This document shows, piece after piece, positions 44,579 through 57,586 of a stretch of DNA of 64,000 bases; position 1 is the first letter of the stretch, and each line of letters begins with the position of its first letter. The stretch is from a bacterium (lineage in GTDB: Bacteria > Patescibacteriota > Patescibacteriia > UBA9570), in assembly GCA_030698395.1 (NCBI GenBank), contig JAUYKW010000018.1, forward strand, positions 44,726 through 108,725, written 5' to 3'. A program made the position numbers and the translations under genes. The notes below the pieces were generated by a model. The model saw only the letters and a list, made by a program, of their open reading frames with translations, did not search any database and had not been told where the DNA came from.

Positions 44579-46554
44579 CTATCTGGCGTATTTATTTTTT
44601 TGGTACCGTATATTGTACGGTATTTTTTGTGATTGAATTTGTAGAGCATCCATTGTGTTCGGTTGCCAATTCTCTGTTCATCTACTTTGGTAAATGCTAA
44701 AGGGTATTTATCTAATACCTTGTAAAATTCTTGGAGATCTTTTTGATTATTACTATTATTTAGGATCCAGTAATAATTAATTCCATTTTTACGTAACTTA
44801 TTTGTGAGTAGTTCATTTGGTTTGATGGTGAAATATCTTTGTTGGTAATTTGTGTCGAATGTTCTAATAAGGGCTACAGCGTGATTATTACGAATTTGTA
44901 TATCTGAGGAATAGTATTGAGTTTCATAGAAATGAGCATTACTAGCTATTAAACCATTATTAGATGCATTTTTTAATGAGTCTGTAGCGGTAGGTGCGCC
45001 ATAATCATATCCGTAAGTTGCTAAGGACAACTTGTTATTAAAATAAAAAGGAGCCATTTTTAAACAGAGTAAGGTAATTATTATTAATCCGAGGATGGGG
45101 TATTTCTGTTTGAGTTTTATCTTTGGGAATAATATGACTCCTATTAAGAGAATCACAAAAAGTGCAATAAAAATTATCGGTTTATAAGTTAATAGAGTTG
45201 CAAGAAATGAGGCATTTGCTAGTGCACTACCATATACAAGATCTTTGATATCAAACCAATACAAAATTACAAAAAATATAAATACTGATGAAAATATAAT
45301 TGATTGTCGTTTGGAGAATTTTGTTAGTATTTGGCGAGCGGCGAGAAATGTAAAGTAAATAATACAAACTAATATTGGCAATGTAACTCGGAAACCAATA
45401 ATGCTTTCAGCCTCATGATAATTCAGATAAACGAATACGAGGAGTAATGTCATCATTACAATGTCTGGTCGTATTTTACTATAATGTTTTTTAAAATTGT
45501 TAAATATTCGCTTTGCACTTATCCAAATCCCTAGAGATGTTAAAGGTAAAATAAAAATATTTAAATCTTGCTCGGAAAAATTATAAGAATAAATCAACCA
45601 AAGTTTTTGAAAGAAGTTAGCAGGTGCGCGTTGAATTTGAGATTCAACTAATCCTGTTGGAATTTCTCTTGAGTATTCCGCAATAGCAATTTTAGATTGG
45701 CTTAATTCACTTATTAGTGGAGTATCAGATGGGCTAAGAGAAAGAATTTGATCCAGCACAGAAAAAATAAGTTTGTTGATGAAAATGTATATATCACCAA
45801 ATACAAAACGAAGAAGATTTTCATATAAGCGGGGATATGGCAACATGTTAAAATCTAGTAATAGTATCGTTGCAATAAAAGTAGGGAAGGCAATTATTAA
45901 AGATTCTTTTATGATATATAATATTTTATATGATATTTCTTTATTTATTTTCCAAGAGTCTAGTATAGTAATTGTAAAAATCATTGGAGCAGCCAGCAAC
46001 AAATAGTAATCTTTTATCAACATTAGCAACAATAGGCCAAGACCAATTTGATATGCTTTGGCTTTTTTTGCCAGTAAGTAGACTAGGAAAGTAAATGCAA
46101 AAGTTGCTGGAATGTCTAGCATTAAACGAACCGAGAATATCCAAAAACCTGGAATTAGTAATAAGATAAAAAGAAACCACTTGCGTCTTTCCTTTTTAAT
46201 GTCTAAATGATTAGTAAGTAAATAAAGGGATATTATAAATCCAGCAGCGAAGATAAAAATTGGAATTCTATATTCAGTTAGAGTCTGAGGATTTGTGATT
46301 AGATTGTATAAAAATGCTACAAACGCCACTAAAAATGTATGCTCTGTATTAATGTTATACCAGGAAATTTCTCCATTAAATGCACCTTTGAAAGCGTTAA
46401 CAATGTTTGCATAGATATACTCATCAGGTGTGGGCCATATCCAGTTATTTAAAAGGGCAAGAAATATTAAGGAAAATAATAAAAAAAATATCAAGGTAGA
46501 ATGTTGTTTGAGGAATTTTACTAGTTGTTGTATTATCTTCATTTTATATCTCAC
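44575..46554 (-). CDS. Large polytopic GT-C glycosyltransferase, ArnT/PMT (GT39/GT83)-like
   Basis: 659 aa, about 13 TM segments, with a first-loop motif WPTPDEYIYANIV (DE-x-x-Y type) and a C-terminal soluble domain. Confidence 0.45.
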   Translation of the reverse strand: MRYKMKIIQQLVKFLKQHSTLIFFLLFSLIFLALLNNWIWPTPDEYIYANIVNAFKGAFNGEISWYNINTEHTFLVAFVAFLYNLITNPQTLTEYRIPIFIFAAGFIISLYLLTNHLDIKKERRKWFLFILLLIPGFWIFSVRLMLDIPATFAFTFLVYLLAKKAKAYQIGLGLLLLMLIKDYYLLLAAPMIFTITILDSWKINKEISYKILYIIKESLIIAFPTFIATILLLDFNMLPYPRLYENLLRFVFGDIYIFINKLIFSVLDQILSLSPSDTPLISELSQSKIAIAEYSREIPTGLVESQIQRAPANFFQKLWLIYSYNFSEQDLNIFILPLTSLGIWISAKRIFNNFKKHYSKIRPDIVMMTLLLVFVYLNYHEAESIIGFRVTLPILVCIIYFTFLAARQILTKFSKRQSIIFSSVFIFFVILYWFDIKDLVYGSALANASFLATLLTYKPIIFIALFVILLIGVILFPKIKLKQKYPILGLIIITLLCLKMAPFYFNNKLSLATYGYDYGAPTATDSLKNASNNGLIASNAHFYETQYYSSDIQIRNNHAVALIRTFDTNYQQRYFTIKPNELLTNKLRKNGINYYWILNNSNNQKDLQEFYKVLDKYPLAFTKVDEQRIGNRTQWMLYKFNHKKYRTIYGTKKINTPDS

Positions 46555-46586
46555 TAGAAGCAGGCTTTATTATATAAAAAAGTCTA

Positions 46587-47450
46587 TTATCTCACCAATT
46601 TGAACGGGGATAGAATAGCTACTTTTGTAATTTTTATAGCATGAAATCCAATAAGTAGGACAATATGCTTTATTTTGTAGTATTGGTTGGGACAATTCTT
46701 TAATAAATATTTAATCATATAAATCATATTGCTGTGTGATTTTATATGAAAGGCATCATCAAAAGCTTGTTTGAGAGTTGGGTTTTTTATCCTAGATTCA
46801 ATTCCTGATTTAATCCCAGTATCGTGAGAAACAGCATCATAAGATACCACCATTTTAAAACCAGCCCTTTTTACTTGCAGAAAAAAATCATAATCTGATA
46901 GATAATGGGGAAAGCGTTTATAATCAAAGGCAACTTTAGAAAAAACTTCTATCGGTAGGAGCGTGAATCTGCCTGTCATTACATCAATCTGTCCATCATA
47001 AACACCATTTTCTTGAATTGGTATCAGAGGATATGTTCTGGTTTTCCATTTAGCTACATGCCCGCCACTAATTATTTTTCCCGTGGAATTTTTTATTGCT
47101 GCAGCAACGACAGCTCTATTATACTTCAAGCTAGTTTGATAGCAGATTTCTAAAGCATCTTTTTCTGGAAAGTGATCATTGTTAGCAAACAGAATGAAAT
47201 CTTCCGGTTGAGCTTCTTTTTTTATATACTCAACCCCCATAGCCATGGTTCTTGTCCAGAAAACGTCACCCTTAGTAGATAGTATTTTTACTTTTGGAAA
47301 ATGTTTTTTTATTGCTTCAACCGAACCATCTGTTGAAGCATCATCAACTACCACAATTTCAAAATCTTGCATTGTTTGGCTATAAATTTTTTCTATAAAC
47401 TTGAGCGTAGTGTCTCGACGATTATAAATGGCTGTTAATACATAAATCAT
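46587..47450 (-). CDS. GT2 glycosyltransferase
   Basis: TAIYNRRD and VVVDDASTDGS. 287 aa. Confidence 0.75.
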   Translation of the reverse strand: MIYVLTAIYNRRDTTLKFIEKIYSQTMQDFEIVVVDDASTDGSVEAIKKHFPKVKILSTKGDVFWTRTMAMGVEYIKKEAQPEDFILFANNDHFPEKDALEICYQTSLKYNRAVVAAAIKNSTGKIISGGHVAKWKTRTYPLIPIQENGVYDGQIDVMTGRFTLLPIEVFSKVAFDYKRFPHYLSDYDFFLQVKRAGFKMVVSYDAVSHDTGIKSGIESRIKNPTLKQAFDDAFHIKSHSNMIYMIKYLLKNCPNQYYKIKHIVLLIGFHAIKITKVAILSPFKLVR

Positions 47451-47462
47451 AATTGATACAAT

Positions 47463-48635
47463 CTATTCAGAAAGTTCTAATAAATTATCAGCAAAGGCTT
47501 TGATGGTGAATTTCTGTTGGGAGCGTAGATAGTTACTTTCCAAAATTTTTGTTCGTTCAGTATCATCAAGATTTAAACAGAAAAGTATTTTTTCTATCAT
47601 GGATTGTTGATTTCCTTGCTGAAAGATAAATCTATCATCTCCTACAACTTCAGGGATTGCTCCATTGTTACTTCCAAGAATTAATGTTTTCGTCATCATA
47701 GCTTCAACCAAAACTCTTCCAAATAATTCATAGAAGTCTCTCTTTCCTTTATTAGTAGGCAAAATAAGTAAATCAATTATATTATATAGATATACTAGAC
47801 GATCGTAATCTTGGGCACCTAACATAAAGCAACGTTTTTCTAATTTATGTTCTGTAATGTATTTTTTACATTTCATAATATATTCTTCATTCCCATCACC
47901 AGCCACTACAAATGAAACATGTTCTGGTAAATCAGCTAATGCTTGAATTATATTCAATACTCCTTTTTCAGGAACAACTCGGCCAACAAAGCCGAGAATA
48001 TATTTTTGATCAAAAATAATTTCCTGCTTTAACTTTTTTACGAGTTTTGCACTTGATAAGTTAAGAGGTTTAAATTGAGCGGGGTCACTACTCCAGTAAA
48101 CAGTTTTAACTTTATTGCCGATTGGTAAAGCTTTCTTAATTCTTTCTTCTTGGCCATGGTTACGGGCTACAAATCTATGGGCAAATAACTTATTAAATTT
48201 TAAAAGTATTCTAACAGGCCATGGTAGGTAGCTGGAATCTTCAAAATATTTTGCCTGACTCCAGGTAACAATACGATATCGTTTAAAGAAGAGTAATTTG
48301 TAAAGAACTACAAAGAACGTATCGAATGTAAAGGTTTCATCGGTTACAATTATTATATCTGGATTATGTTGCATGATAGCCAAAGGTAAGGCTGGGAAGT
48401 ATCCAGATAATAGATACGTTTTTTTTCTGAATAATTTTCCCGGAATGTACTCAACATTATTAATCGTTTTACGTTCCAGAAAATATTGTGGCTGATATCC
48501 ATTGGTATATTGCACTTCTTTTGGTAAAACTACTTTTACCTCAAATCCAGGTCGATTTCCTATTTCACTAAAAAAATCTTGAAATTGGTGATTTGCCCCG
48601 TAATGGCTTAAGAATAGAATTTTTGTGATATCCAT
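47463..48635 (-). CDS. GT4 (GT-B fold) glycosyltransferase
   Basis: C-terminal FGRVLVEAMMTKTLILGSNNGAIPEVV. ATG at 48635 (MDITKILFLSH) is preferred over the TTG at 48683. Confidence 0.75.
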   Translation of the reverse strand: MDITKILFLSHYGANHQFQDFFSEIGNRPGFEVKVVLPKEVQYTNGYQPQYFLERKTINNVEYIPGKLFRKKTYLLSGYFPALPLAIMQHNPDIIIVTDETFTFDTFFVVLYKLLFFKRYRIVTWSQAKYFEDSSYLPWPVRILLKFNKLFAHRFVARNHGQEERIKKALPIGNKVKTVYWSSDPAQFKPLNLSSAKLVKKLKQEIIFDQKYILGFVGRVVPEKGVLNIIQALADLPEHVSFVVAGDGNEEYIMKCKKYITEHKLEKRCFMLGAQDYDRLVYLYNIIDLLILPTNKGKRDFYELFGRVLVEAMMTKTLILGSNNGAIPEVVGDDRFIFQQGNQQSMIEKILFCLNLDDTERTKILESNYLRSQQKFTIKAFADNLLELSE

Positions 48636-48784
48636 AAATTGCCTACTATTTTCATTGTAGCTTTGTGTATGGTAACAGAACAATGATATGAGGACAATAT
48701 CATGGATACATTATCATTGCCTTGTCACACAGCTATATTTTCAGTATAATATCGACAACTTTATATAACTCCAAATTCAACTGC

Positions 48785-49573
48785 ATGAGCCTCATTTCGC
48801 ATCTAGCAACAGTTGCAAAGCCAAGTAATGTTTTGGAAAGCATTAAGAGTATCAAGTTATCGTCCCAATATTCGATTAAGGGGGACTATAAACGGATATA
48901 TCTATATCATATTCGAAAAACTGGTGGAACAAGCTTAAACCACATGTTTTTATCTCTAGGTGGTAGAGATGGCAGAGATGTTTATCGAGAGATGATGCAA
49001 AAGCCTAATCATCGAATAATTAGTAGCAATAAGGTATTTGCTGGTTTTAACCACAGTATAATTAAAAGGGGTAATTATTATTATGCTTTTTCTCATGAGC
49101 CAATGCATGAAGTTGTGATTCCTGATAAAACCTTTACTGTTACTTGTGTACGAGATCCCTTAGAAAGAGTTGTGTCTCATTATAAAATGTTGATTGAAAT
49201 GAAACAGGATAATGCAAAACATCCGGGAATGCAAAAACAAAGTAAATGGCTAGGAAATAGTTTTGAAGATTTTTTAAAGAATATTCCAAAAAAGTTTTTA
49301 TTAAATCAGTTATACATGTTTTCAAAGGAATATAGTATAGACGAAGCTACTACTAATATTGTATCTTGTTCACATTTTTTCTTCACAGAAAATTTTTCGC
49401 AAGGTGTTGCTGGGTTATCCGATAAGTTAGGAATTCAACTGCAAGCTCTTCATACTCGTAAGACCCCAAGTAGCATTATGGTTACAGAAAAAGAGCAAGA
49501 TCAGCTACGAGAAATGTTGGAACCTGAATATATTTTATATAAAAAATTATCACAAATAAAAGAATCAGCTTAA
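48785..49573 (+). CDS. Sulfotransferase (Sulfotransfer_2-like)
   Basis: 5'-PSB loop YHIRKTGGTSL and 3'-PB motif VRDPLERVVSHY. ATG at 48785 is preferred over the TTG at 48722. Confidence 0.65.
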   Translation: MSLISHLATVAKPSNVLESIKSIKLSSQYSIKGDYKRIYLYHIRKTGGTSLNHMFLSLGGRDGRDVYREMMQKPNHRIISSNKVFAGFNHSIIKRGNYYYAFSHEPMHEVVIPDKTFTVTCVRDPLERVVSHYKMLIEMKQDNAKHPGMQKQSKWLGNSFEDFLKNIPKKFLLNQLYMFSKEYSIDEATTNIVSCSHFFFTENFSQGVAGLSDKLGIQLQALHTRKTPSSIMVTEKEQDQLREMLEPEYILYKKLSQIKESA

Positions 49574-49575
49574 TT

Positions 49576-50316
49576 ATGAATGTTTTTAATATACCCTCAG
49601 TTATTTGGAAGAGAGTTAATAACAAAGTATATGGTTTACTAGGTAAAGATCCATTAACCAAGGAGAAAATTTATCAAGTTAAGACTGAACGAATCGGTAC
49701 AAATTATGGTGGCTGGGTGATTCCAGCAAATTATCTAACTAAAGATTCAGTTTGTTATTGTGCAGGCGTTGGTGAAGATGTTAGTTTTGATTTGGGTATA
49801 ATTAAAAAATATGTTTGTAAAGTTTATGCTTTTGATCCTACGCCACGCGCGCAAGAATACATAGAGAAAAATGTTGAGCCAGATCCAAATTTTGTTTTTG
49901 TGGACGTTGGTTTATGGGATGAAGACACCACCATGAAGTTTTATTCTCCAAAAAATCCAGATCATGTCTCACATTCGATTGTGAATCTACAGAAAACTGA
50001 TACTTATTTTGAAGCAAAGGTAAAAAGATTATCGACTATTATGAGAGAGTTACAGCATGATAAATTATCTTTATTAAAGTTAGACATTGAAGGTGCTGAG
50101 TATAAAGTGTTAGATTCTTTAGTAGATGATAAGGTTGATATTGATATATTATGTATCGAATTTGATGAGGGGCATACTAAAATGGACAATGATTATAAAT
50201 CTCGAATCAAAGGATCGTTAGAAAAACTTTTTGCCATGGGTTACGTGATGATAGATGTTGATCAGAGTTGTAATTACACCTTGATTAAAGAGAATATGTT
50301 AAGAGAATTGGCTTAG
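49576..50316 (+). CDS. FkbM-family SAM-dependent methyltransferase
   Basis: The hallmark LKLDIEGAEYKVL and a CAGVGEDVSFD nucleotide-binding region. Confidence 0.7.
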   Translation: MNVFNIPSVIWKRVNNKVYGLLGKDPLTKEKIYQVKTERIGTNYGGWVIPANYLTKDSVCYCAGVGEDVSFDLGIIKKYVCKVYAFDPTPRAQEYIEKNVEPDPNFVFVDVGLWDEDTTMKFYSPKNPDHVSHSIVNLQKTDTYFEAKVKRLSTIMRELQHDKLSLLKLDIEGAEYKVLDSLVDDKVDIDILCIEFDEGHTKMDNDYKSRIKGSLEKLFAMGYVMIDVDQSCNYTLIKENMLRELA

Positions 50317-50319
50317 AGC

Positions 50320-51570
50320 ATGAAAGTTGCACAGTTGAGTACAATGGATATCAAAGGAGGTGGCGGTTCTATGGCCGCCTATCGCTTGCATACTGCTTTG
50401 CGTGCTAACAATGTAGATTCTTCACTATTGGTAAAATTCAAATATAGTGATGATAAAAATGTAATCGGTAAACATCCGACTAACGAGTTAGTAAGAAAAA
50501 TTAGTTCGTTCAGTTCATTTATGGATGAAATTCCTGGTAAATTTTCTAACTCGCCTGATACGGTGTATCGTTCGAGTGCATGGTATCCGGATGGTGTGGC
50601 ACGAAAGTTAAAAGAGTTGAATCCTGACGTAATAAATCTACATTGGATTAATGGTGGCTTTGTGCGATTGGAATCTCTTGCTAAGTGGCAAGGGTCAATT
50701 GTATGGACGATGCATGATATGTGGGCATTTTGTGGCACAGAGCATTACACTAGTGATCAACGTTATCAAGAGGGATATTTAAAAACAAATCGACCAGCTG
50801 GAGAATCTGGATTTGATGTAAATCGTTGGACGTGGCAACGAAAACAAAAGGCATGGTCTACACTAACTGATCTAGTTGTAGTAACACCTAGTAAGTGGTT
50901 AGCAAGTTGTGTTCGAAAAAGTGTATTGTTCAAGAATTATCGAATTGAAGTAATTCCAAATAGTGTTAACCAAGAAATTTTTAAACCACAAGAAAAGATT
51001 GTGTTACGAAAGAAACATAATATAAATCCACAGAGTAAACTTATTTTGTTTGGCGCTGGAAATACTGCTAGTCCAAGAAAGGGAGTGGATTTACTAAAAA
51101 AAGCATTAAAAAAATTAAGTGTTAATGCTACACATAATTATATTGAGTTAGTAGTTTTTGGTAAGTATCAGCCAGAGGATTACAGTGATATTAATTTACC
51201 AATTAAGCATTTAGGTCATGTTGCTGGAGAGTCTGAGATTGCAGAAATATATTCTATGGCCGATGTATTTGTTGCTCCGTCCCGCCAAGATAATCTACCA
51301 AATACAATTGTAGAGGCTTTAGCTTGTGGAACACCATGTGTGGCATTTAATATTGGCGGCATGCCAGATATGATTGATCATCAAAATAATGGGTATTTAG
51401 CTAAAGCATTTGATGTGGATGAATTAGCTGCTGGAATTGTTTGGGTATTGGAAGATAAAGAACGATGGCAGAAGCTTTCTAGTCAATCTAGAATTAAGGC
51501 TGAAAATAATTATACATATTCAGAGCAAGCAAAAAAATATAGTGAACTTTATCAAAGCATCACTGTTTAA
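50320..51570 (+). CDS. GT4 (GT-B fold) glycosyltransferase
   Basis: PSRQDNLPNTIVEALACGTPCVAFNIGGMPDMI (E-x7-E region). Confidence 0.8.
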   Translation: MKVAQLSTMDIKGGGGSMAAYRLHTALRANNVDSSLLVKFKYSDDKNVIGKHPTNELVRKISSFSSFMDEIPGKFSNSPDTVYRSSAWYPDGVARKLKELNPDVINLHWINGGFVRLESLAKWQGSIVWTMHDMWAFCGTEHYTSDQRYQEGYLKTNRPAGESGFDVNRWTWQRKQKAWSTLTDLVVVTPSKWLASCVRKSVLFKNYRIEVIPNSVNQEIFKPQEKIVLRKKHNINPQSKLILFGAGNTASPRKGVDLLKKALKKLSVNATHNYIELVVFGKYQPEDYSDINLPIKHLGHVAGESEIAEIYSMADVFVAPSRQDNLPNTIVEALACGTPCVAFNIGGMPDMIDHQNNGYLAKAFDVDELAAGIVWVLEDKERWQKLSSQSRIKAENNYTYSEQAKKYSELYQSITV

Positions 51571-51582
51571 GGAGTTGTCTTT

Positions 51583-52479
51583 TTATTGACCTGCCTTATA
51601 TATAGCGTATCGATCAGCTAACCAATTTTGGGGAGATTGTTTTTTTGGTTGGAGTTTAGCTAGCTCGGATAAGATAGATTCAATATTATATCCAAGGAGG
51701 GATAATTTTTCTGAGTCTAATGAACGTAGATATTTTTTTGCGTACTGTATACGTAAATTTGTATTGAATGTAGTTTTCCATTTTTCTAATGACTTATTCT
51801 GTACCTGTTTTTCTTTAGCTATATAGGGATCTCCCATGGTGCCATGAAGTTTTTCTTTTTGAATATTTTGGATCATATTTGAATTGAATGGTATTTCTAG
51901 ATAGTTACAAATCTTCTCTGTAACTTCGCTTGATTTTTCTACTAACTCTTCATATTTAATTAATATACTTTTTTCTTTCAGCAATTCATATCCATCACTC
52001 AGGAGATGTGGACCTTCATACAGATCTGTATTTGAAGGTTTTACATTTAATTTACCAAAGTTCCATGTTTCAATCACTGAAGCTAATGTTGCCAAAGGAT
52101 TTCTGCCTAAAAAAATAAATTTTGCCTCAGGAAATAATTTTGCTATTTCTGGAATAATAAAATAGTAACGAGGAGTTTTATCAAGAAAATATTTTTCATT
52201 GTCACAAGCTGAACTATATATGTCAGTGACAAATTCTTTTAATGACTTATCATAAGAAAACATTTTTTTTGGAAGTTCTGAAAAAAAATCTTGTAGCGCT
52301 TGACGACAAACTTCCTTATCGTAATCTACTGTTAGATCATTTTGTTTTTTTGGATATAGGAGTGGTAACAATATCCATGGTTCAGATACAGAACAAATTT
52401 CTGGATGAGACATTAATATTTTCTGCAGTAAAGTTGAACCAGAACGAGGTGTGGAAAAGAGGAAGATTAAATTATCCAT
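51583..52479 (-). CDS. Sulfotransferase (Sulfotransfer_1/3-like)
   Basis: 5'-PSB loop STPRSGSTLLQKIL and 3'-PB-like FLGRNPLATLAS. 298 aa. Confidence 0.65.
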   Translation of the reverse strand: MDNLIFLFSTPRSGSTLLQKILMSHPEICSVSEPWILLPLLYPKKQNDLTVDYDKEVCRQALQDFFSELPKKMFSYDKSLKEFVTDIYSSACDNEKYFLDKTPRYYFIIPEIAKLFPEAKFIFLGRNPLATLASVIETWNFGKLNVKPSNTDLYEGPHLLSDGYELLKEKSILIKYEELVEKSSEVTEKICNYLEIPFNSNMIQNIQKEKLHGTMGDPYIAKEKQVQNKSLEKWKTTFNTNLRIQYAKKYLRSLDSEKLSLLGYNIESILSELAKLQPKKQSPQNWLADRYAIYKAGQ

Positions 52480-53491
52480 TTTTTCTAATTAATTTGCTAT
52501 AAGCTAGAGCTAACATATCTTGAAGTTGAGTTTTTTTACAAGAAATTATTCTTCGACGTAAATCATTTGGTATTACTTGCTGAATATCATCTTGCTCATT
52601 TAATTCTTGTATTTCAGCAACATAATCTTTATTTTTTTCGTAGAGTATATCAGCGTATTCTGTTCTATCAGATAGCTTTGGATTATTATGTTCCTCAGGC
52701 CACTTTAAAAGTTGTTCTTGCAATTTAAAATAAAGTTTAACTTTTTCACTAGTTCGTAAACCATTAGTCCCAATTGGATGCCATGGGTGTGCCGTGTATG
52801 TGTCTGTAAGTACAGCTCCTTTGCTGTTAGCGGCCATTTCCAATCTGATACTGACATCTTCTCCAATTTTGGATAGAGAAGTACTCCAAAGAGGATTAGT
52901 GTCATATCCTTCTATTATATCCCAATACTTTCTTGCCGCGGATATCATTGGTCCAAAATTTCGGCGGGGTGGAAATAATTCAGGTTGTCTATATTTTGTT
53001 GGGCAAGTTGCTAGCACAGATGCTAGATCGTTGTTAGCATTTTGCCATTCCTTAAAGGATGCCCCAGCTGGGTATTGAGCCATTCTACGAAACGCATTAA
53101 ATACTTTGTACTTTCCTTGTTGATGATGCTTTGTTAGCACAGTTAGAAAGTCTTTAGGTAGAAGTTGATCTCCATCCATTACTGAAATTATATCGCCTTG
53201 AGATGCCGCTATGCCAGCATTATTACATTTTGATAAGTGATAAGCTTCAGTATTAACATTCTCGTCCAAATAAATTATCTTGATATTCATTTGGTCTTTA
53301 ACTTCTTTATGGCGATCGAACAGCGATTTTAATCCCTTTTTGTGATTATACTTATCGGCAAATTCACGGCTTCTTTGTTCAACATAAATAAGTTCAAAAT
53401 TATTCCTAGGGAAATCTTGATTTAGTAGACCATTAATTAGATGAAAAAAATTACGATAACTCGAGTCCCAACTAATGATAGAGTGTAACAT
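52472..53491 (-). CDS. GT2-like glycosyltransferase (divergent)
   Basis: GT-A-like N-terminus (FELIYVEQRS) and DxD candidate VMDGDQ. 8-nt overlap with the downstream sulfotransferase gene. Confidence 0.45.
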   Translation of the reverse strand: MLHSIISWDSSYRNFFHLINGLLNQDFPRNNFELIYVEQRSREFADKYNHKKGLKSLFDRHKEVKDQMNIKIIYLDENVNTEAYHLSKCNNAGIAASQGDIISVMDGDQLLPKDFLTVLTKHHQQGKYKVFNAFRRMAQYPAGASFKEWQNANNDLASVLATCPTKYRQPELFPPRRNFGPMISAARKYWDIIEGYDTNPLWSTSLSKIGEDVSIRLEMAANSKGAVLTDTYTAHPWHPIGTNGLRTSEKVKLYFKLQEQLLKWPEEHNNPKLSDRTEYADILYEKNKDYVAEIQELNEQDDIQQVIPNDLRRRIISCKKTQLQDMLALAYSKLIRKNG

Positions 53492-53495: not shown

Positions 53496-54467
53496 TTATT
53501 TTATATCAGTCAACCAAGCTCTTACAAGTTTGATTTCGTCGTTGGATACAAATCCATTTTTATGAAGAGCAGTGTAAACAATTTCTAAGTTTTTCAATAA
53601 ATCTTTACCTAGTTTTATATTTTGAAGTAATTCAATGATTGGTTTAGTGTTTTGATATACTTCAACTTCATCAGCAAAATCTTTCATTAAGTTGTGAGCA
53701 TTTCTTTCTTGGTAAACAGTTGCCTCAGTAAAACCTAAATGCATGCCATGTAGCCACATAATATGTTGTGCCAGATAACCTCTTAGAATATCAGTAAATC
53801 TAAAACTAACAGTTGCGGGGAGATATAATAATGGAAATGCTTTTTTTTGCCAGAAAGTATTTTGCGAATTAAACGGACAGTAACACTTTTTTGGTAAATG
53901 AATACTTTTTTTTCGATCGAATTTGGTAGTGTCGTTAAAGACTAAGCGATAAATGGCATCAACATCTGGATCTGTATCAGCTAAACCTTGCCATGCTCCA
54001 ATACTAGTTAATTTAGAATGTTGTTTTAACTTGCTCTTATTTTTTGTTTGAATGAGGTCTAACGGGTATCCTCGTGGCCAAATTAATTTCTTTGAAAAGT
54101 AATTGTATACATTATAATATTTGTCTTTTGTCTCTATACTTCTTTTGCTAGTAAAATCTGGACACTTCCAATGTTTGTATGGCAGATTGTCGTCATCTGT
54201 ATCATAGATAATATCTGCTCCTTGACGCATTGCATAAATATACCCGATGTTTTTTCTAGTATAGTGGTTATAAGGACTGTAGCGAACAAATTCGTAGCCT
54301 AGTTTTTTTTGATCTTGAACTGAAAGGAAGGTTAAGTTTTTTGAACTTTTAATTTGTGGAGTTTTTTTATCTCCAACAAGAACAACGTGCCAATCTGGAA
54401 TTTTTTCAAAAGCTTTTACCGCTTTAGTTCTGTCGTTAATGCTAGTTATGACTATGAATTTTTTCAT
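53496..54467 (-). CDS. Putative glycosyltransferase, DUF288/STELLO-like
   Basis: The N-terminal pattern KKFIVITSINDRT..WHVVLVGDKKTP and a DTDDDN motif resemble that family. The call is from memory only. Confidence 0.35.
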   Translation of the reverse strand: MKKFIVITSINDRTKAVKAFEKIPDWHVVLVGDKKTPQIKSSKNLTFLSVQDQKKLGYEFVRYSPYNHYTRKNIGYIYAMRQGADIIYDTDDDNLPYKHWKCPDFTSKRSIETKDKYYNVYNYFSKKLIWPRGYPLDLIQTKNKSKLKQHSKLTSIGAWQGLADTDPDVDAIYRLVFNDTTKFDRKKSIHLPKKCYCPFNSQNTFWQKKAFPLLYLPATVSFRFTDILRGYLAQHIMWLHGMHLGFTEATVYQERNAHNLMKDFADEVEVYQNTKPIIELLQNIKLGKDLLKNLEIVYTALHKNGFVSNDEIKLVRAWLTDIK

Positions 54468-55675
54468 GATAGTTGCGTAATTTTATAATCAGTTGGAGGA
54501 CAAGATCCTAAGACATCTCTGCGCGACACAATAAAAGGATCAATTACACTAGTTGGTTGCATTTCAAAGAATAATAATTGTGGACGGTAAAAAATTCCTG
54601 TATCAAGCAGTCCCAGCCCTAAGCTAATGCTGTAATTTCCGGGTGGAAGATTTGTATCTTCAGCAGAAATTTCAAGTTTATGTTTTCCTTTAGGAATGGC
54701 ATCTATTTTTGCTGTAACTGTCATGATGCGTGCTAACTGACTGTTAAATATTTGGATACCAACTCTAATATTATTGAGTTCTTTATCGGTGTTATTAGTT
54801 ACTAGCAACTCTGTAATCAGAGGCTTGCTGTACTGCATTTGGGACAATCTAATTTGTTCAATAGTAAAGTTTTTGATTTTTGTATCAAACGGACCAGTTC
54901 CTGATTCTTGAGAATTTGTCAGGCGTAGATATTCTTGAACAGCTTTGTCTGTATCTGCGATCGTTACAATTTTTCCTTGATTCAGCACAACGCATGATTT
55001 ACATAAGCTTTGAATTGCTCCCATATTGTGGCTAACAAAAATGATAGTGCGACCATCTTCTTTTGTTACTTCATCCATTTTGCCAAGGCACTTTTTTTGA
55101 AACTGGGTATCACCAACAGCTAGTACTTCATCTACTAAAAGAATCTCTGGTTCTAGATGGGCAGCTACAGCAAATGCTAAACGCACGCGCATCCCACTAG
55201 AATATCTTTTTACTGGGGTGTCTAAGAATTTTTCTACTTCTGCGAATTCAACAATTTCATCAAACTTTTTTGAGATTTCTCTTTTTGTCATGCCCAATAC
55301 AGCTCCATTTAGAAATACATTTTCTCGGCCAGTTAATTCTGGATGAAATCCAGTGCCAACTTCCAATAAGCTAGCAACTCTGCCACGTAAAGTTATTTTA
55401 CCAGTGGTTGGTGATGTGATGCGGGACAATACTTTTAATAGGGTACTTTTACCAGCTCCGTTACTACCGATTAATCCTATTACTTCACCTTTCTCTATAG
55501 AAAAATTTATATCTTTAAGTGCCCAGAATGTTTCTCGATGGGATTCTTTGTTTGTGAACCATTTTTTTGGATTTAAAGATTTAGCAATTACATCACGTAA
55601 AGCTACATAGGGTTCCATTTCCCCTAGTTGATATTGTTTTGAAATATTTTCAGCTAGAATTACAGGTTTGGACAT
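54464..55675 (-). CDS. wzt: Polysaccharide ABC exporter ATP-binding protein (Wzt/TagH type) with a C-terminal extension
   Basis: GSNGAGKSTLLK, SSGMRVRLAFA and LLVDEVLAVGD. About 150 extra C-terminal residues are beta-rich. Confidence 0.8.
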   Translation of the reverse strand: MSKPVILAENISKQYQLGEMEPYVALRDVIAKSLNPKKWFTNKESHRETFWALKDINFSIEKGEVIGLIGSNGAGKSTLLKVLSRITSPTTGKITLRGRVASLLEVGTGFHPELTGRENVFLNGAVLGMTKREISKKFDEIVEFAEVEKFLDTPVKRYSSGMRVRLAFAVAAHLEPEILLVDEVLAVGDTQFQKKCLGKMDEVTKEDGRTIIFVSHNMGAIQSLCKSCVVLNQGKIVTIADTDKAVQEYLRLTNSQESGTGPFDTKIKNFTIEQIRLSQMQYSKPLITELLVTNNTDKELNNIRVGIQIFNSQLARIMTVTAKIDAIPKGKHKLEISAEDTNLPPGNYSISLGLGLLDTGIFYRPQLLFFEMQPTSVIDPFIVSRRDVLGSCPPTDYKITQLS

Positions 55676-55679: not shown

Positions 55680-56501
55680 TTATACTACATCTGCGAACTT
55701 TTGTTCGGTTTTACGGAAATAAAATAAGCCTACAATAAATAACAATATTGAAATACCTATAGACATGGCTAGACTTTCTAGATTAATTGGCGTATTTCCA
55801 ATAATGATGGCACGAGCGTTTTCAATTACACCAGACATTGGATTAAGATTTAGAATCCATTGGTATTTCTCGCCAGCAATTTTTGCGGGATAAATTACGG
55901 GTGTTAAAAAAAGTAGCATTTGAATAAAAAACGGAATAATATATCGGACATCACGATATTTTACATTTACTGCTGATAGAAATAATCCCATACCTAAACT
56001 AGTGAAGTAGGTAATGAGAATCAATATTGGAATAAGAAATAGACTAATTGGTTTAGGGACGAATTGATAATAAAACATCATGGCACAGAGGATGGAGCTG
56101 GCAATTAAGAAATCAATAAAAGCAACAATTACTGTTGATGATGGTAATATTAATCTTGGAAAATAGATTTTTTTGATCATCTCTTGATCAGATACTAAGC
56201 TACCGCTAGCACTTGATAGTGCTTGTGAGAAAAAGAGCCAGAAAACTAAACCAACATAAACAAATATTGGATATGGAGCACCGCTAGAATCTATTTGAGC
56301 TAGGTTTCCAAAAAAGACTGTAAAAATTACCATACTTATGATAGGTACAAAAAAAGCCCACAATATTCCAATGGCTGTTTGTTTGTATCTTACTTTTACA
56401 TCTCTAAGTGCAAGAAAGTAAAAGAGATCTTTATATTGGAGCATTTCCCGGAAGTCTATCCGTAGCCAGCTACGTTTTGGTAGGATAATTGTTTCTTTCA
56501 T
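55680..56501 (-). CDS. wzm: Polysaccharide ABC exporter permease (Wzm/TagG, ABC-2 type)
   Basis: 273 aa with six TM segments and the ABC-2 pattern. It lies directly upstream of wzt. Confidence 0.8.
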   Translation of the reverse strand: MKETIILPKRSWLRIDFREMLQYKDLFYFLALRDVKVRYKQTAIGILWAFFVPIISMVIFTVFFGNLAQIDSSGAPYPIFVYVGLVFWLFFSQALSSASGSLVSDQEMIKKIYFPRLILPSSTVIVAFIDFLIASSILCAMMFYYQFVPKPISLFLIPILILITYFTSLGMGLFLSAVNVKYRDVRYIIPFFIQMLLFLTPVIYPAKIAGEKYQWILNLNPMSGVIENARAIIIGNTPINLESLAMSIGISILLFIVGLFYFRKTEQKFADVV

Positions 56502-56575: not shown

Positions 56576-57586
56576 CTATGCTTTTTCCAGAAATACAATA
56601 AAGCTCTCTCCTTTGCCGGCTTTATCGCGTATCCGCCATGCTGGAATGGTGAAGTAACTATTCAATAATGCTAGAACTCTCAAACTGAATTCTTTGAAAC
56701 TTAAGTATTTAATATATTCTAATGTATTCATGTTCTTAGGACGCGGTTGCCAGATGGTTTCTTTGTTTCCCAGTGATACTCGTTCTTTTTTATTGGTAAG
56801 ATATTGTAATGCAACCCAACCCATTGGAGTGGTAGTTTCGGATTTAAGAACTTTGAATCCAGTTTCTTTAGCCAGAACATTTATACTTTTTTGTGAAAAA
56901 AAATTTACGTGATATGGAATGTGCCAGTTAATCCATTTTTTTTCGGTTCGCTTTGCATTTGCACTTTCTATATTTGGTGTACTAAGAATTATTTTACCAC
57001 CAACCTTTAATTTTTTTGATATTTTGATTAAAAAATCTTTAGGATCAGGTATATGTTCTATTAACTGACTCATTGTGATGAAATCAAAGAAATCATCAGG
57101 GTAAGGCATTGTGTCTATGTCGCCAAAATGTATTTCTAAATTTAGTTCGTCTGCAATTGGTTTTATATTTTTATCTAGTTCTGTTCCGTATGCATCACCA
57201 CCAAGTTTAGTAATTTCTAAAAGAGATACTCCGTTTCCGCAACCTATATCCAAAACTTTGCTACCAGCAGTTATATAACTATGACATTTATTTTTTTCTC
57301 CTTGTAGATTGTTTTTGTCGCTATTTGGTTTTCTAGAGAAATTATCAGCAGTTGCTTTTACATCATCAGCAGTCATTGCTTTTCTGGGATAATAATCTGT
57401 ATAAATACTTTCTAATACTTCACTAGATGGAATTGGGTTAATTTCAGCAAAGTTACATGATGAACATTTATTCACTGAGTATTGTTCAGGGTATCCATAA
57501 CGATCATCATGCATTTCATTGTACAGGAGTGTCGTCGGAGATTTGCATATTTTGCAGTATAATACTGCATTTTCTTCACTTAGCAT
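56576..57586 (-). CDS. Class I SAM-dependent methyltransferase with an N-terminal Cys4 zinc ribbon
   Basis: CKICKS...CSSC ribbon and motif I VLDIGCGNG. It is the first gene of the wzm-wzt operon. Confidence 0.7.
   Translation of the reverse strand: MLSEENAVLYCKICKSPTTLLYNEMHDDRYGYPEQYSVNKCSSCNFAEINPIPSSEVLESIYTDYYPRKAMTADDVKATADNFSRKPNSDKNNLQGEKNKCHSYITAGSKVLDIGCGNGVSLLEITKLGGDAYGTELDKNIKPIADELNLEIHFGDIDTMPYPDDFFDFITMSQLIEHIPDPKDFLIKISKKLKVGGKIILSTPNIESANAKRTEKKWINWHIPYHVNFFSQKSINVLAKETGFKVLKSETTTPMGWVALQYLTNKKERVSLGNKETIWQPRPKNMNTLEYIKYLSFKEFSLRVLALLNSYFTIPAWRIRDKAGKGESFIVFLEKA

What the first reader, a model, noticed from the sequence alone, without database searches (positions are those of the whole stretch)
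48785..52479. Two different sulfotransferases embedded in the glycan locus imply a sulfated bacterial polysaccharide
ORF 48785-49573 carries HIRKTGGTS (5'-PSB loop) and VRDPLERVVSHY (3'-PB). ORF 51583-52479 carries TPRSGSTLL and GRNPLATLAS.

Both pairs are classic PAPS-binding signatures, but from two different sulfotransferase subfamilies. The genes flank an FkbM methyltransferase and a GT4.

Sulfated glycans are uncommon in bacteria. No PAPS-synthesis genes (sat/cysDN, cysC) are in this window, so the sulfate donor supply is an open question. That matters particularly for a reduced genome.
Basis: partly seen in the sequence, partly recalled or inferred. Interest (0 to 1): 0.55.

Follow-up and report, generated by a model that had tools for sequence, protein, structure and literature searches.

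The report
Two sulfotransferases in a CPR glycan locus
A tiny-genome (CPR/Patescibacteria) bacterium carries two intact, unrelated sulfate-transferring enzymes inside the gene cluster that builds and exports its fucose-containing surface sugar coat, so the coat is probably sulfated; this kind of cluster is known from other bacteria, and where the activated sulfate comes from is still unknown.

Summary
ORF 48785-49573 (+) matches PF03567 (E 1e-8) and ORF 51583-52479 (-) matches PF13469/PF00685 (E 7e-31). Both keep every family-invariant PAPS-loop residue and give confident sulfotransferase-fold models. ST1 is closest to heparan-sulfate 6-O/2-O-sulfotransferases, and ST2 to CurM-ST and tyrosylprotein sulfotransferases.

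GenBank already names both genes as sulfotransferases (MDP3970733.1, MDP3970736.1). The host is a Kerfeldbacteria-like CPR MAG.

The genes sit in a ~27 kb glycan locus that also holds:
- GDP-L-fucose synthesis (Gmd, Fcl)
- about ten glycosyltransferases
- three methyltransferases
- a Wzm/Wzt ABC exporter whose Wzt carries a cap-reading carbohydrate-binding domain

ST2 is the last gene of the wzm-wzt operon. ST1-FkbM-GT4 is a separate operon.

Homologues elsewhere sit in the same kind of cluster, sometimes next to APS kinase, CysDN and CysQ. ST1-type domains are repeatedly fused to FkbM methyltransferase domains.

No PAPS-synthesis gene lies in the 64 kb window, and the rest of the genome could not be searched.

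Verdict: this is a new member of a known kind (sulfated polysaccharide clusters). The CPR host, the open PAPS supply and a possible sulfo/methyl capping module add moderate interest.

The parts
48722..48750 (+). Promoter-like site (TTGTCA-17-TATAAT) for the ST1-FkbM-GT4 operon
   Evidence: It is the best match in 47-58.5 kb (11 of 12), 35 nt upstream of the ATG at 48785. This is a consensus match only; the total count of such sites is not above chance.
48785..49573 (+). ST1: Sulfotransfer_2-family (PF03567) sulfotransferase, 262 aa, MDP3970733.1
49576..50316 (+). FkbM-family SAM methyltransferase, 2 nt downstream of ST1
   Evidence: PF05050 E 4.7e-14 and TIGR01444 64 bits against 37.7. It is 29-39% identical to FkbM domains that lie C-terminal to ST1-type domains in fused proteins P0271, P0270, P0287 and P0274.
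50320..51570 (+). GT4 glycosyltransferase (GT4c), conserved partner of ST1-family genes
   Evidence: PF00534 E 2e-30. Homologues at 36-40% identity lie next to ST1 homologues in L084, L089 and L086, and homologues at 33-44% lie within 2.6 kb on the same strand in L116, L117, L128, L132, L133 and L161.
51583..52479 (-). ST2: Sulfotransfer_3/Sulfotransfer_1-family sulfotransferase, 298 aa, MDP3970736.1; last gene of the wzm-wzt operon
   Evidence: PF13469 E 7e-31 and PF00685 E 2e-11. Invariant residues P11, R12, G14, S15, T16, E33, K101, R126 and S134 are kept. Sequence match to CurM sulfotransferase 4gbm is E 2e-16. The AF2 model has pLDDT 90.7. Foldseek matches TPST1/2 at TM about 0.7, E 3e-10. 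The start overlaps the upstream gene by 8 nt. GenBank names it 'sulfotransferase'.
52472..53491 (-). GT2-like glycosyltransferase (GT2d)
   Evidence: PF00535 E 1.6e-7.
53496..54467 (-). STELLO-like glycosyltransferase
   Evidence: PF03385 E 1.4e-14.
54464..55675 (-). Wzt: ABC exporter ATPase with a C-terminal carbohydrate-binding domain
   Evidence: PF00005 matches; Wzt_C is weak at 21.9 bits, below the 30.4 cut-off. phmmer aligns residues 43-354 to residues 29-350 of full-length Aquifex aeolicus Wzt (8dku/7k2t, 404 aa), E 1e-68, so the alignment runs through the CBD.
55680..56501 (-). Wzm: ABC-2 permease
   Evidence: PF01061 E 1e-18. It is 59% identical to the Wzm of the Patescibacteria locus L084.
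56576..57586 (-). Class I SAM methyltransferase (MT23), first gene of the minus-strand operon
   Evidence: PF13489 E 8e-25. It is 51% identical to its L084 counterpart.
42644..48683 (.). Further glycosyltransferases: GT2b 42644-43414 (+), GT4a 43415-44578 (+), a 659-aa polytopic membrane protein 44575-46554 (-), GT2c 46587-47450 (-), GT4b 47463-48683 (-)
   Evidence: Pfam hits. The 659-aa protein has no Pfam hit and only a faint hit to a 'cell surface glycopolymer formation protein' family.
40661..42641 (+). GDP-L-fucose synthesis: Gmd 40661-41710 and Fcl 41712-42641
   Evidence: TIGR01472 577 bits against a cut-off of 415, and NF047922 511.7 bits against 500.
30831..40650 (.). Distal part of the glycan locus: GT2a, GNAT, GT87, DegT-type aminotransferase, WbuC-like cupin, GtrA, methyltransferase-like protein (PF01170/PF01555), epimerase, 522-aa membrane protein, GT2+DUF2304
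   Evidence: Pfam and NCBIfam hits. GT2a, GNAT, GT87 and DegT are 70%, 47%, 55% and 75% identical to the genes that directly follow the ST1 homologue in L084.

Best explanation
Both genes most likely encode active, cytoplasmic, PAPS-dependent O-sulfotransferases. They would decorate the fucose-containing surface glycan that this locus builds on a lipid carrier at the inner face of the membrane. A Wzm/Wzt ABC transporter then exports the glycan.

Shown:
- family membership, intact PAPS-loop and catalytic residues, and the sulfotransferase fold for both proteins
- operon placement: ST2 is the last gene of MT-wzm-wzt-GT-GT-ST2, and ST1 is the first gene of ST1-FkbM-GT4
- GDP-L-fucose synthesis genes in the locus
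- a carbohydrate-binding domain on Wzt
- the same kind of neighbourhood for homologues in other bacteria, some with dedicated PAPS-supply genes
- recurrent fusion of ST1-type domains to FkbM methyltransferase domains

Inferred:
- the acceptor is the glycan. ST1 probably acts with FkbM and the GT4 on one residue, possibly a fucosylated or terminal one, while ST2 sulfates a second position.
- sulfation happens before export.
- PAPS is made by sat or cysDN plus cysC encoded elsewhere in the genome.
For: Family membership: both profile matches exceed Pfam's curated cut-offs.

Active-site residues: every invariant column of 38-sequence family alignments is retained. ST1 keeps K45, G48, T49, S50, H104, R123 and S131. 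ST2 keeps R12, S15, T16, E33, K101, R126 and S134. In ST2 these residues align with the PAPS-loop, catalytic Glu and Lys of CurM-ST and TPST.

Operon structure: genes overlap by 4-8 nt or have very short gaps.

Locus content: Gmd and Fcl score above equivalog cut-offs. Wzt aligns through the CBD of A. aeolicus Wzt.

Context of homologues:
- Patescibacteria L084 has Wzm-Wzt-...-FkbM-GT4-ST1-GT2-GNAT-GT87-DegT, with 40-75% identical partner genes.
- L086 has APS kinase immediately upstream of the ST1 homologue, followed by GT2-FkbM-GT4.
- In Deferribacter, L092 has APS kinase-CysD-CysN-APS kinase-CysQ-Wzx directly upstream of the closest named ST2 homologue.
- L127 has ST1-GT2-APS kinase-CysD-CysN.

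Fusions: GT2-ST-FkbM, MT-ST-FkbM and FkbM-ST.

Fucose link: GT11 fucosyltransferase or Gmd/Fcl genes lie beside ST1 homologues in L086, L094, L138, L145 and L150.

Against: There is no biochemical evidence, and the acceptor is unknown.

No PAPS-synthesis or PAP-recycling gene lies in the 64 kb window. The rest of the MAG could not be searched.

The related Patescibacteria locus L084 also lacks PAPS genes within the 15 kb held.

ST2's nearest solved structures are protein-tyrosine and polyketide sulfotransferases, not carbohydrate ones.

ST1's Pfam match covers only the N-terminal 140 of 252 model positions.

The catalytic base of ST1 is assigned only by invariance (H104), not by a reliable alignment to the 2-OST histidines.

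ST2 lacks the roughly 24-residue C-terminal tail seen in most homologues.
Confidence: 0.68

Rival explanations
1. Capping-module variant. ST1-FkbM-GT4 is a chain-terminating module. The GT4 adds a terminal sugar, FkbM methylates it and ST1 sulfates it. The Wzt carbohydrate-binding domain then reads this sulfo/methyl cap to license export. Sulfate would be a new kind of cap for ABC-transporter-dependent glycans, rather than a decoration on every repeat unit.
For: Wzt carries a CBD homologous to that of A. aeolicus Wzt. CBD-bearing Wzt proteins export only capped chains, and known caps are methyl, (methyl)phosphate or Kdo (PMC9445017).

ST1-type domains are fused to FkbM and GT2 domains in single polypeptides, in the same ST-then-FkbM order as the genes here.

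The ST1+GT4c(+FkbM) neighbourhood recurs on the same strand across phyla.

An RfbT-type (PF05575) methyltransferase sits next to Wzt in L084. From established knowledge, V. cholerae RfbT methylates the terminal perosamine of an ABC-exported O-antigen.
Against: The Pfam Wzt_C match is below its cut-off.

The locus has two other methyltransferases that could supply an ordinary methyl cap.

Nothing distinguishes terminal from per-repeat sulfation in sequence data.

No sulfate cap was found in the literature searched.

Only 6 of 38 ST1-family loci of 8 kb or more have a Wzt within 10 kb. The closest homologue's locus, L094, shows no Wzm/Wzt in the 20 kb held and instead carries WecA-like, WecG and Wzy_C genes.
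Confidence: 0.22
2. ST2 is a protein (tyrosine) sulfotransferase of the TPST/RaxST type that modifies a secreted or surface protein, not the glycan.
For: The best structural matches of the ST2 model are tyrosylprotein sulfotransferases 1 and 2 (TM 0.66-0.71, E about 3e-10). The catalytic Arg, Glu, Lys and Ser of TPST are all conserved.
Against: ST2 is translationally coupled to a GT2 gene at the end of the wzm-wzt operon.

Its closest named homologue sits between a Wzx flippase and glycosyltransferases, behind a cysDNC-cysQ block.

By sequence it is closer to CurM-ST (E 2e-16) than to TPST (E 8e-9).

Its only NCBIfam hit is the carbohydrate sulfotransferase NoeE.

No peptide substrate or type I secretion genes lie nearby.
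Confidence: 0.06
3. The genes are functionally stranded. They arrived by horizontal transfer with the glycan cassette, the reduced genome makes no PAPS, and no sulfation occurs.
For: No PAPS genes lie in 64 kb.

The family shows a flat identity distribution across phyla: 45-57% to Patescibacteria, Gammaproteobacteria, Nitrosomonadales, Desulfobulbus and Anaerolineales alike. RNase J, by contrast, is 80-82% identical to its closest relatives. This fits a mobile gene pool.

The locus GC (0.329) is slightly below that of its flanks (0.357-0.366).
Against: Both ORFs are intact, retain all invariant residues and sit in tightly packed operons.

An ST1 homologue is kept in the same cluster type in another Patescibacteria genome.

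Only about 10% of ST1-family loci carry PAPS genes nearby, so their absence here is uninformative.

CPR genomes with sat, cysC and cysN are reported.
Confidence: 0.1
4. The acceptor is a small glycolipid or oligosaccharide (as with Nod factors or mycobacterial sulfolipids) rather than an exported polymer.
For: ST2's only NCBIfam hit is NoeE, the Nod-factor fucose sulfotransferase (84 bits). Characterised bacterial carbohydrate sulfotransferases mostly act on lipo-oligosaccharides (PMC8205485).
Against: The NoeE score is far below its equivalog cut-off of 500 and covers only the PAPS-binding half. The locus has about ten glycosyltransferases and a Wzm/Wzt polymer exporter, and no acyltransferase, polyketide synthase or Nod-type genes.
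Confidence: 0.08

Closest known systems
Synechan (xss) sulfated exopolysaccharide cluster of Synechocystis sp. PCC 6803 (Maeda et al. 2021, PMC8205485)
   Same: One polysaccharide cluster carries two sulfotransferases from distinct subfamilies among about eight glycosyltransferases. [quoted passage not shown]
   Different: Synechan uses Wzx/Wzy polymerisation in a Gram-negative phototroph that has full sulfate assimilation. Here the exporter is Wzm/Wzt with a CBD, the host is a CPR bacterium, and no regulator set (XssQRS) is present. Homology of ST1 and ST2 to XssA and XssE was not tested.
Sulfated capsular polysaccharide clusters of marine Vibrio sp. KMM 8419 and Cobetia marina (PMC11641403, PMC11766843)
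   Same: These are ABC-transporter-exported glycans with several sulfotransferase genes embedded among glycosyltransferases and 6-deoxyhexose synthesis genes.
   Different: Those clusters carry a second copy of cysNDC. The authors call PAPS genes plus sulfotransferases in one cluster the hallmark of sulfated polysaccharide synthesis. That hallmark is not met in this window.
Heparan sulfate 6-O- and 2-O-sulfotransferases (PDB 5t03, 3f5f), the Sulfotransfer_2 clade
   Different: Identity is only 16-19%. ST1 is a soluble 262-aa bacterial protein with no Golgi stem or transmembrane segment. The acceptor-binding half is not alignable by sequence.
CurM/OLS activating sulfotransferases and tyrosylprotein sulfotransferases (PDB 4gbm, 4gox, 5wri, 3ap1), the Sulfotransfer_3 clade
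   Same: They are the best sequence (E 2e-16) and fold (TM about 0.7) matches of ST2. They have an identical PRSGST loop, catalytic Glu, DKxP Lys and Rxx...S 3'-PB.
   Different: Their acceptors are a beta-hydroxyacyl-ACP or a peptide tyrosine. ST2's genomic context is purely glycan.
Cap-dependent Wzm/Wzt O-antigen export (A. aeolicus WzmWzt; E. coli O9a WbdD; PMC9445017, PMC3482155)
   Same: Both have a Wzm permease plus a Wzt ATPase with a C-terminal CBD, with methyltransferases encoded beside the transporter. Window Wzt is 403 aa and A. aeolicus Wzt is 404 aa, aligned across 312 residues.
   Different: Known caps are methyl, methyl-phosphate or Kdo; sulfate is not among them. CPR bacteria have no outer membrane or LPS, so the final acceptor must differ. 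No WbdD-like kinase or coiled-coil terminator was seen.
NoeE (Nod-factor fucose 3-O-sulfotransferase) and NodH of rhizobia
   Same: NoeE is the only curated NCBIfam model hit by ST2. The locus also makes GDP-L-fucose and encodes O-methyltransferases, echoing the methyl-fucose sulfate of NGR234 Nod factors (the chemistry is from established knowledge).
   Different: The score is 84 bits against an equivalog cut-off of 500. The match is limited to model positions 10-143 of 387, which is the PAPS-binding half.

Membership tests
Sulfotransfer_2 (PF03567) PAPS-dependent carbohydrate sulfotransferases - ST1 | Profile match above the curated gathering score | tested here: met
   36 bits against a cut-off of 22, E 1.1e-8, covering model positions 3-140 of 252.
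Sulfotransfer_2 (PF03567) PAPS-dependent carbohydrate sulfotransferases - ST1 | 5'-phosphosulfate-binding loop with catalytic Lys and Ser/Thr (xKxGxTS) | tested here: met
   HIRKTGGTS is present. K45, G48, T49 and S50 are invariant across 38 homologues and align with PKTASTS of HS 2-OST.
Sulfotransfer_2 (PF03567) PAPS-dependent carbohydrate sulfotransferases - ST1 | 3'-phosphate-binding motif (RDPxxRxxS) | tested here: met
   VRDPLERVVSHY is present. R123, P125, R128 and S131 are invariant and align with IRDPIERLVSYY of HS 2-OST.
Sulfotransfer_2 (PF03567) PAPS-dependent carbohydrate sulfotransferases - ST1 | Catalytic base (His) positioned near the 5'-PSB loop | tested here: inconclusive
   H104 (and H42) are invariant in the family. 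The sequence alignment does not place H104 on His140/142 of 2-OST, and model coordinates could not be inspected.
Sulfotransfer_2 (PF03567) PAPS-dependent carbohydrate sulfotransferases - ST1 | Sulfotransferase alpha/beta fold | tested here: met
Sulfotransfer_3 / Sulfotransfer_1 (PF13469 / PF00685) - ST2 | Profile match above the gathering score | tested here: met
   PF13469 108.6 bits against 27, full length; PF00685 44 bits against 22.
Sulfotransfer_3 / Sulfotransfer_1 (PF13469 / PF00685) - ST2 | PRSGST 5'-PSB loop, catalytic Glu, DKxP Lys, and 3'-PB Arg...Ser | tested here: met
   R12, S15, T16, E33, K101, R126 and S134 are all invariant in 38 homologues. They align with the corresponding residues of CurM-ST and TPST1.
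Sulfotransfer_3 / Sulfotransfer_1 (PF13469 / PF00685) - ST2 | Sulfotransferase fold | tested here: met
   AF2 pLDDT 90.7, pTM 0.89. Foldseek matches TPST1/2 at TM 0.66-0.71 and CurM-ST at E 2.5e-9.
Both sulfotransferases | PAPS-dependent sulfuryl transfer to a defined acceptor | not testable with these tools
   This needs enzyme assays. Only indirect support exists, from homologues adjacent to APS kinase, CysDN and CysQ.
NoeE equivalog (NF052394) | Score at or above the equivalog cut-off | tested here: not met
   84.3 bits against 500. ST2 is not NoeE.
Sulfated-polysaccharide gene cluster as defined in PMC11641403 | Sulfotransferase genes inside a polysaccharide biosynthesis and export cluster | tested here: met
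   Both sulfotransferases lie among GT2/GT4 genes, Gmd/Fcl and Wzm/Wzt.
Sulfated-polysaccharide gene cluster as defined in PMC11641403 | PAPS-synthesis genes (cysC, cysDN or sat) in the same cluster | tested here: not met
   None was found in the 64 kb by Pfam or tblastn. Presence elsewhere in the genome could not be tested.
Cap-dependent ABC-transporter (Wzm/Wzt-CBD) glycan pathway | Wzm ABC-2 permease plus Wzt nucleotide-binding protein | tested here: met
   PF01061 and PF00005 match. Match to A. aeolicus WzmWzt is E 1e-68.
Cap-dependent ABC-transporter (Wzm/Wzt-CBD) glycan pathway | C-terminal carbohydrate-binding domain on Wzt | tested here: inconclusive
   Pfam Wzt_C scores 21.9 bits, below its 30.4 cut-off. 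However, the phmmer alignment to full-length A. aeolicus Wzt runs to residue 354 of 403, well into the CBD.
Cap-dependent ABC-transporter (Wzm/Wzt-CBD) glycan pathway | Dedicated terminal-modifying enzyme that stops elongation | not testable with these tools
   The candidates are FkbM, MT23, ST1 and ST2. Only fusion and neighbourhood evidence links ST1, FkbM and a glycosyltransferase.
CPR / Patescibacteria (Kerfeldbacteria-like) host | Closest relatives of housekeeping genes are CPR genomes | tested here: met
   RNase J is 80-82% identical to Candidatus Kerfeldbacteria MAGs, and 52-77% to Patescibacteria group, Magasanikbacteria and Falkowbacteria (lineage). The glycan genes are 47-75% identical to those of a Patescibacteria group MAG. 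This rests on a single marker, and some equally close records are titled 'uncultured Gammaproteobacteria'.

The most novel reading that the evidence does not exclude
The ST1-FkbM(-glycosyltransferase) unit, found here as adjacent genes and elsewhere as single fused polypeptides, may be an unrecognised class of chain-terminating module. It would install a sulfated, methylated terminal sugar, possibly a fucose-linked residue, as the export cap read by the Wzt carbohydrate-binding domain. In a host-attached CPR episymbiont this capped glycan would be the contact surface. The sat/cysC/cysN genes reported in CPR genomes, so far read as sulfate reduction, would exist to supply PAPS for it.
Probability: 0.2. 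Interest if true: 0.65.

Novelty: new member of a known kind. Interest (0 to 1): 0.38.

Why it matters
CPR/Patescibacteria live attached to host cells, and their surface chemistry is almost unknown. Kerfeldbacteria were singled out as especially strongly host-attached (PMC7906910). A sulfated, methylated, fucose-containing glycan would be a strongly anionic and unusual surface, relevant to attachment, phage resistance or metal binding.

The finding also offers a concrete and testable reason for the sat/cysC/cysN genes seen in CPR genomes. The literature found here reads those genes as sulfur-cycling capacity. No paper found links Patescibacteria with sulfotransferases.

More generally, the recurrent ST-FkbM fusions point to a coupled sulfation and methylation step in ABC-exported glycans that has not been characterised. 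If instead the genome truly lacks a PAPS route, it would imply uptake of an activated sulfate donor from the host, which would be new for bacteria.

Tried and rejected
1. Walking out of the window to look for PAPS genes failed. Only short Logan contigs of the same organism came back (L001-L003), and the last window protein is not on record.

No genome-wide search for cysC or sat in Kerfeldbacteria genomes was possible afterwards.

3. The supplementary METABOLIC tables of PMC7906910 list cysC, sat and cysN per genome. They are cut off and could not be mapped to Kerfeldbacteria columns at reasonable cost.

4. The longer TTG start of ST1 (48722, 283 aa) was rejected, because that TTG is the -35 box of the best promoter-like site and GenBank uses the ATG.

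5. The 276-aa Logan gene call of ST2 was rejected. It removes the invariant PRSGST loop, and GenBank has the 298-aa form.

6. I considered whether ST2 is degenerate because it is about 24 aa shorter than its homologues. The missing part is a variable C-terminal tail outside the catalytic core. The convergent GT4 stop codon is only 12 nt away, so no frameshifted remainder exists.

7. Neither an ST1+ST2 pairing nor a CPR-type locus turned up in the metagenome scan. None of 80 loci has an ST2, GT87 or GT2a homologue.

8. The intrinsic terminator and promoter scans are at chance level overall and were used only for the one 11-of-12 site.

9. The last homologue search was not spent on APS kinase, because a top-120 list cannot be restricted to this lineage.

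Full report
OBSERVATION. Both ORFs are present exactly as described. ST1 (48785-49573, +, 262 aa) contains HIRKTGGTS and VRDPLERVVSHY. ST2 (51583-52479, -, 298 aa) contains TPRSGSTLL and GRNPLATLAS. The motifs hold at profile level and exceed Pfam's curated cut-offs. ST1 hits PF03567 Sulfotransfer_2 (E 1.1e-8, 36 bits against 22). ST2 hits PF13469 Sulfotransfer_3 (E 7e-31, 108.6 bits against 27) and PF00685 (E 2.3e-11). The genes between them are an FkbM methyltransferase (49576-50316) and a GT4 glycosyltransferase (50320-51570).

GenBank already names both proteins. MDP3970733.1 is 'sulfotransferase family 2 domain-containing protein' and MDP3970736.1 is 'sulfotransferase'. Both come from a MAG labelled only '[bacterium]', on a 112,874-bp contig. 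The ATG at 48785 is the likely start of ST1. The upstream TTG at 48722 is the -35 hexamer of the best promoter-like site in the region (TTGTCA-17-TATAAT, 11 of 12).

ORGANISM. The window has about 35% GC, and no tRNA or Rfam hit. It holds housekeeping genes: uvrC, uvrD, RNase J, TrpRS, SHMT, rpsF-ssb-efp, pyk and ppdk.

RNase J is 80-82% identical to Candidatus Kerfeldbacteria MAGs. It is 52-77% identical to 'Patescibacteria group', Magasanikbacteria and Falkowbacteria MAGs. Kerfeldbacteria belong to the Patescibacteria/Parcubacteria group. Some equally close records are titled 'uncultured Gammaproteobacteria bacterium'; I take these to be bulk-submission labels. The glycan genes are 47-75% identical to those of a named Patescibacteria MAG.

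THE LOCUS. A glycan region of about 27 kb runs from about 30.8 to 57.6 kb. Its contents are:
- GT2, GNAT, GT87, a DegT-type aminotransferase, a WbuC-like cupin, GtrA, an epimerase and GT2+DUF2304
- Gmd and Fcl, both above equivalog cut-offs, so GDP-L-fucose is made here
- GT2b, GT4a, a 659-aa polytopic membrane protein, GT2c and GT4b
- the plus-strand operon ST1-FkbM-GT4c
- the converging minus-strand operon MT23-Wzm-Wzt-STELLO-like GT-GT2d-ST2, whose genes overlap by 4-8 nt

The stop codons of GT4c and ST2 are 12 nt apart. Wzt (403 aa) aligns with full-length Aquifex aeolicus Wzt (404 aa; 8dku/7k2t) over residues 43-354, E 1e-68. The alignment therefore runs through the carbohydrate-binding domain. 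The Pfam Wzt_C hit on its own is sub-threshold. Neither sulfotransferase has a signal peptide or membrane segment by inspection. That fits sulfation on the cytoplasmic face before export, where PAPS would be available.

ARE THE ENZYMES INTACT? In 38-sequence alignments of homologues, the window proteins retain every invariant column.
- ST1 keeps Y39, H42, K45, G48, T49, S50, S103, H104, R123, P125, R128, S131 and others.
- ST2 keeps P11, R12, G14, S15, T16, E33, K101, T102, P103, R126, P128, S134 and others.

In ST2 these residues align with the 5'-PSB loop, catalytic Glu, DKxP Lys and 3'-PB Arg/Ser of CurM sulfotransferase and TPST1.

ST2 lacks the variable tail of about 24 residues that most homologues have. 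There is no room for a frameshifted remainder. Nothing suggests degeneration in either gene.

COMPARATIVE CONTEXT. ST1 has 408 homologues at E <= 0.001 in the word-index search. The closest are 45-58% identical and come from Patescibacteria, Gammaproteobacteria, Nitrosomonadales, Desulfobulbus and Anaerolineales. An exhaustive profile search finds 1538 50%-identity representatives, 393 of them at E <= 1e-30. ST2 has 3690 homologues; the best named ones are Deferribacter and Flexistipes at 46-52%.

The neighbourhoods of these homologues are informative.

(a) A Patescibacteria MAG (L084, GC 28%) has Wzm-Wzt-RfbT/FkbM-MT-GT4-MT-GT2-GT2-FkbM-GT4-ST1homolog-GT2-GNAT-GT87-DegT. This is the same gene set as here, rearranged, and without ST2.

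(b) A non-CPR contig (L086) has Wzm-Wzt-MTs-GT11-GT2s-APS kinase-ST1homolog-GT2-FkbM-GT4.

(c) In Deferribacter thermophilus (L092), the ST2 homologue follows APS kinase-CysD-CysN-APS kinase-CysQ-Wzx and precedes glycosyltransferases and an EpsG-type polymerase.

(d) L127 has ST1homolog-GT2-APS kinase-CysD-CysN.

(e) Among 38 metagenome loci of 8 kb or more that carry an ST1-family gene:
- 12 have a GT4c-like gene, 5 of them at 33-44% identity and within 2.6 kb on the same strand
- 4 have an FkbM homologue
- 6 have a Wzt
- 4 have an APS kinase
- 1 has CysDN
- none has ST2

(f) Fucose genes recur beside ST1 homologues. GT11 fucosyltransferase appears in L086 and in the closest homologue's locus, L094. 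Gmd, or Gmd with Fcl, appears at 60-65% identity in L138, L145 and L150.

(g) ST1-type domains occur in fused proteins:
- FkbM-ST (P0269)
- MT-ST-FkbM (P0270)
- GT2-ST-FkbM (P0271, P0287)
- ST-GT2-FkbM (P0274)
- MT-Sulfotransfer_4-ST (P0267)
- MT-GT-ST-TPR (P0374)
- ST-TPR-TylF (P0375)

The window's FkbM is 29-39% identical to the FkbM domains in these fusions. The ST-then-FkbM order matches the two genes here, which are 2 nt apart.

MECHANISM. Best explanation (confidence about 0.68): both proteins are active PAPS-dependent O-sulfotransferases that modify the lipid-linked, fucose-containing glycan in the cytoplasm before Wzm/Wzt export. ST1 works as a unit with FkbM and GT4c. This is supported by the neighbourhood and Rosetta-stone evidence, but the chemistry is inferred. 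ST2 adds a second sulfate at another position; this is inferred from its different subfamily and separate operon.

A more specific variant (about 0.2) is that the ST1-FkbM-GT4 unit makes the non-reducing-end cap. CBD-bearing Wzt proteins export only capped chains, and the known caps are methyl, (methyl)phosphate or Kdo (PMC9445017; PMC3482155). No sulfate cap turned up in the literature searched. Sequence data cannot separate capping from per-repeat decoration.

PAPS SUPPLY. No APS kinase, ATP sulfurylase, CysDN or CysQ-type gene is in the window. The rest of the MAG could not be reached. Absence next to the sulfotransferase is normal, since only about 10% of comparable loci have an APS kinase nearby. 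He et al. [quoted passage not shown] A PAPS route elsewhere in the genome is therefore plausible but unshown. The same paper found Kerfeldbacteria unusually enriched in the fraction above 2.5 um, meaning strongly host-attached. That makes surface chemistry relevant in this lineage.

RIVALS.
- ST2 as a tyrosine sulfotransferase. The fold similarity is outweighed by operon context, the Deferribacter neighbourhood, the closer sequence match to CurM-ST and the NoeE hit.
- Stranded genes without PAPS. This cannot be excluded, but it is disfavoured by full residue conservation, tight operons and retention in another Patescibacteria genome.
- A small glycolipid acceptor. This is disfavoured by about ten glycosyltransferases and a polymer exporter in the locus.

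COMPARISON AND NOVELTY. Sulfotransferases embedded in bacterial polysaccharide clusters are already described:
- Synechan in Synechocystis has two sulfotransferases of distinct subfamilies (PMC8205485).
- Vibrio sp. KMM 8419 and Cobetia marina capsules have cysNDC plus several sulfotransferases and ABC export (PMC11641403).
- Rhizobial NodH, NoeE and LpsS are known from established knowledge.

This locus is a new member of that kind. It does not meet the 'PAPS genes in the cluster' hallmark proposed in PMC11641403.

What is new is the host. No paper found links Patescibacteria with sulfotransferases. The coupling of ST1 to FkbM also appears uncharacterised. Because the genes are already correctly named in GenBank and the inference is conventional, I score interest at 0.38.

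LIMITS. Taxonomy rests on one marker. No acceptor or regiochemistry can be assigned. The counts depend on tblastn thresholds (E <= 1e-8, at least 50% query coverage) and on contigs that are often shorter than the requested flanks.

Noticed in passing
window 5950-7000 (ORF 5836-6987, +): A sharply bounded block of about 1 kb has 53-57% GC in a genome of about 35% GC, and is flanked by 22-30% GC spacers. It carries one long, protein-like ORF (383 aa from TTG; 374 aa in the Logan call) with no Pfam hit, plus shadow ORFs on both strands. It has no Rfam match even at E <= 1. The RNA fold z-score is -4.2, from only 20 shuffles. It is either a foreign gene or an unknown structured RNA.
   Followed up: partly
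window 24930-26534 (+): This is an Elp3-like protein (radical SAM + Radical_SAM_C + GNAT acetyltransferase). That architecture is uncommon in bacteria. It sits beside a class I methyltransferase on the opposite strand.
   Followed up: no
window 57817-58470 (+): Ribosomal protein S6 is 217 aa long, but the Pfam S6 domain covers only residues 4-93. There is therefore a C-terminal extension of about 120 residues of unknown nature.
   Followed up: no
window 44575-46554 (-), 37815-39383 (-), 28962-30827 (+), 22894-24258 (-): Four large proteins (659, 522, 621 and 454 aa) lie in or next to the glycan locus. The two whose translations I read (659 and 522 aa) look polytopic; the other two were not read. 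None has a significant Pfam match. They are candidates for GT-C-type transferases, ligases or polymerases that attach the exported glycan to its final acceptor. No LCP, Wzy_C or WecA/WbaP-type initiating enzyme was detected in the window.
   Followed up: partly
window 1671-5656 (-) and 7167-8093 (-): Three proteins have no Pfam hit: 470 aa, 828 aa and a 308-aa protein. The 308-aa protein has a lysine-rich, low-complexity N-terminal half followed by a membrane segment. This is typical CPR 'dark' surface-protein content.
   Followed up: no
L005, L007-L009, L011-L012 and many others: Many GTDB-representative MAGs titled 'uncultured Gammaproteobacteria bacterium' carry RNase J genes 78-82% identical to this CPR window. 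Their identity is as close as that of records titled Kerfeldbacteria. The record titles look like placeholder or mislabelled taxonomy from a bulk submission.
   Followed up: no
P0267 (860 aa) and P0406 (1120 aa): P0267 carries two different sulfotransferase domains (Sulfotransfer_4 plus an ST1-type domain) behind a methyltransferase domain. P0406 has an N-terminal ST1-type domain followed by about 880 residues with no Pfam match. Both are multi-domain relatives worth examining as possible glycan terminators.
   Followed up: partly
L093 7121-8059: An ST2 homologue (50% identical) lies among type IV pilin genes, a prepilin peptidase, two Wzy_C+TPR proteins and a PMT_2 protein. This hints that in some organisms this sulfotransferase family modifies a protein-linked (pilin or S-layer) glycan.
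   Followed up: no
window 18331-19985 (-): A second ABC-2 permease and ATPase pair, without a C-terminal extension, lies between a Glu-racemase-like gene and iPGM. It is separate from the Wzm/Wzt of the glycan locus.
   Followed up: no
window 51583-52479 and 56576-57586: Gene-start disagreements exist between pipelines. Logan calls ST2 as 276 aa, which drops the PAPS loop, while GenBank has 298 aa. GenBank calls the MT23 methyltransferase as 312 aa against a 336-aa ORF, which drops the first 24 residues and with them the first Cys pair (C11, C14) of the N-terminal Cys-rich (zinc-ribbon-like) segment; the second pair (C41, C44) is kept.
   Followed up: partly
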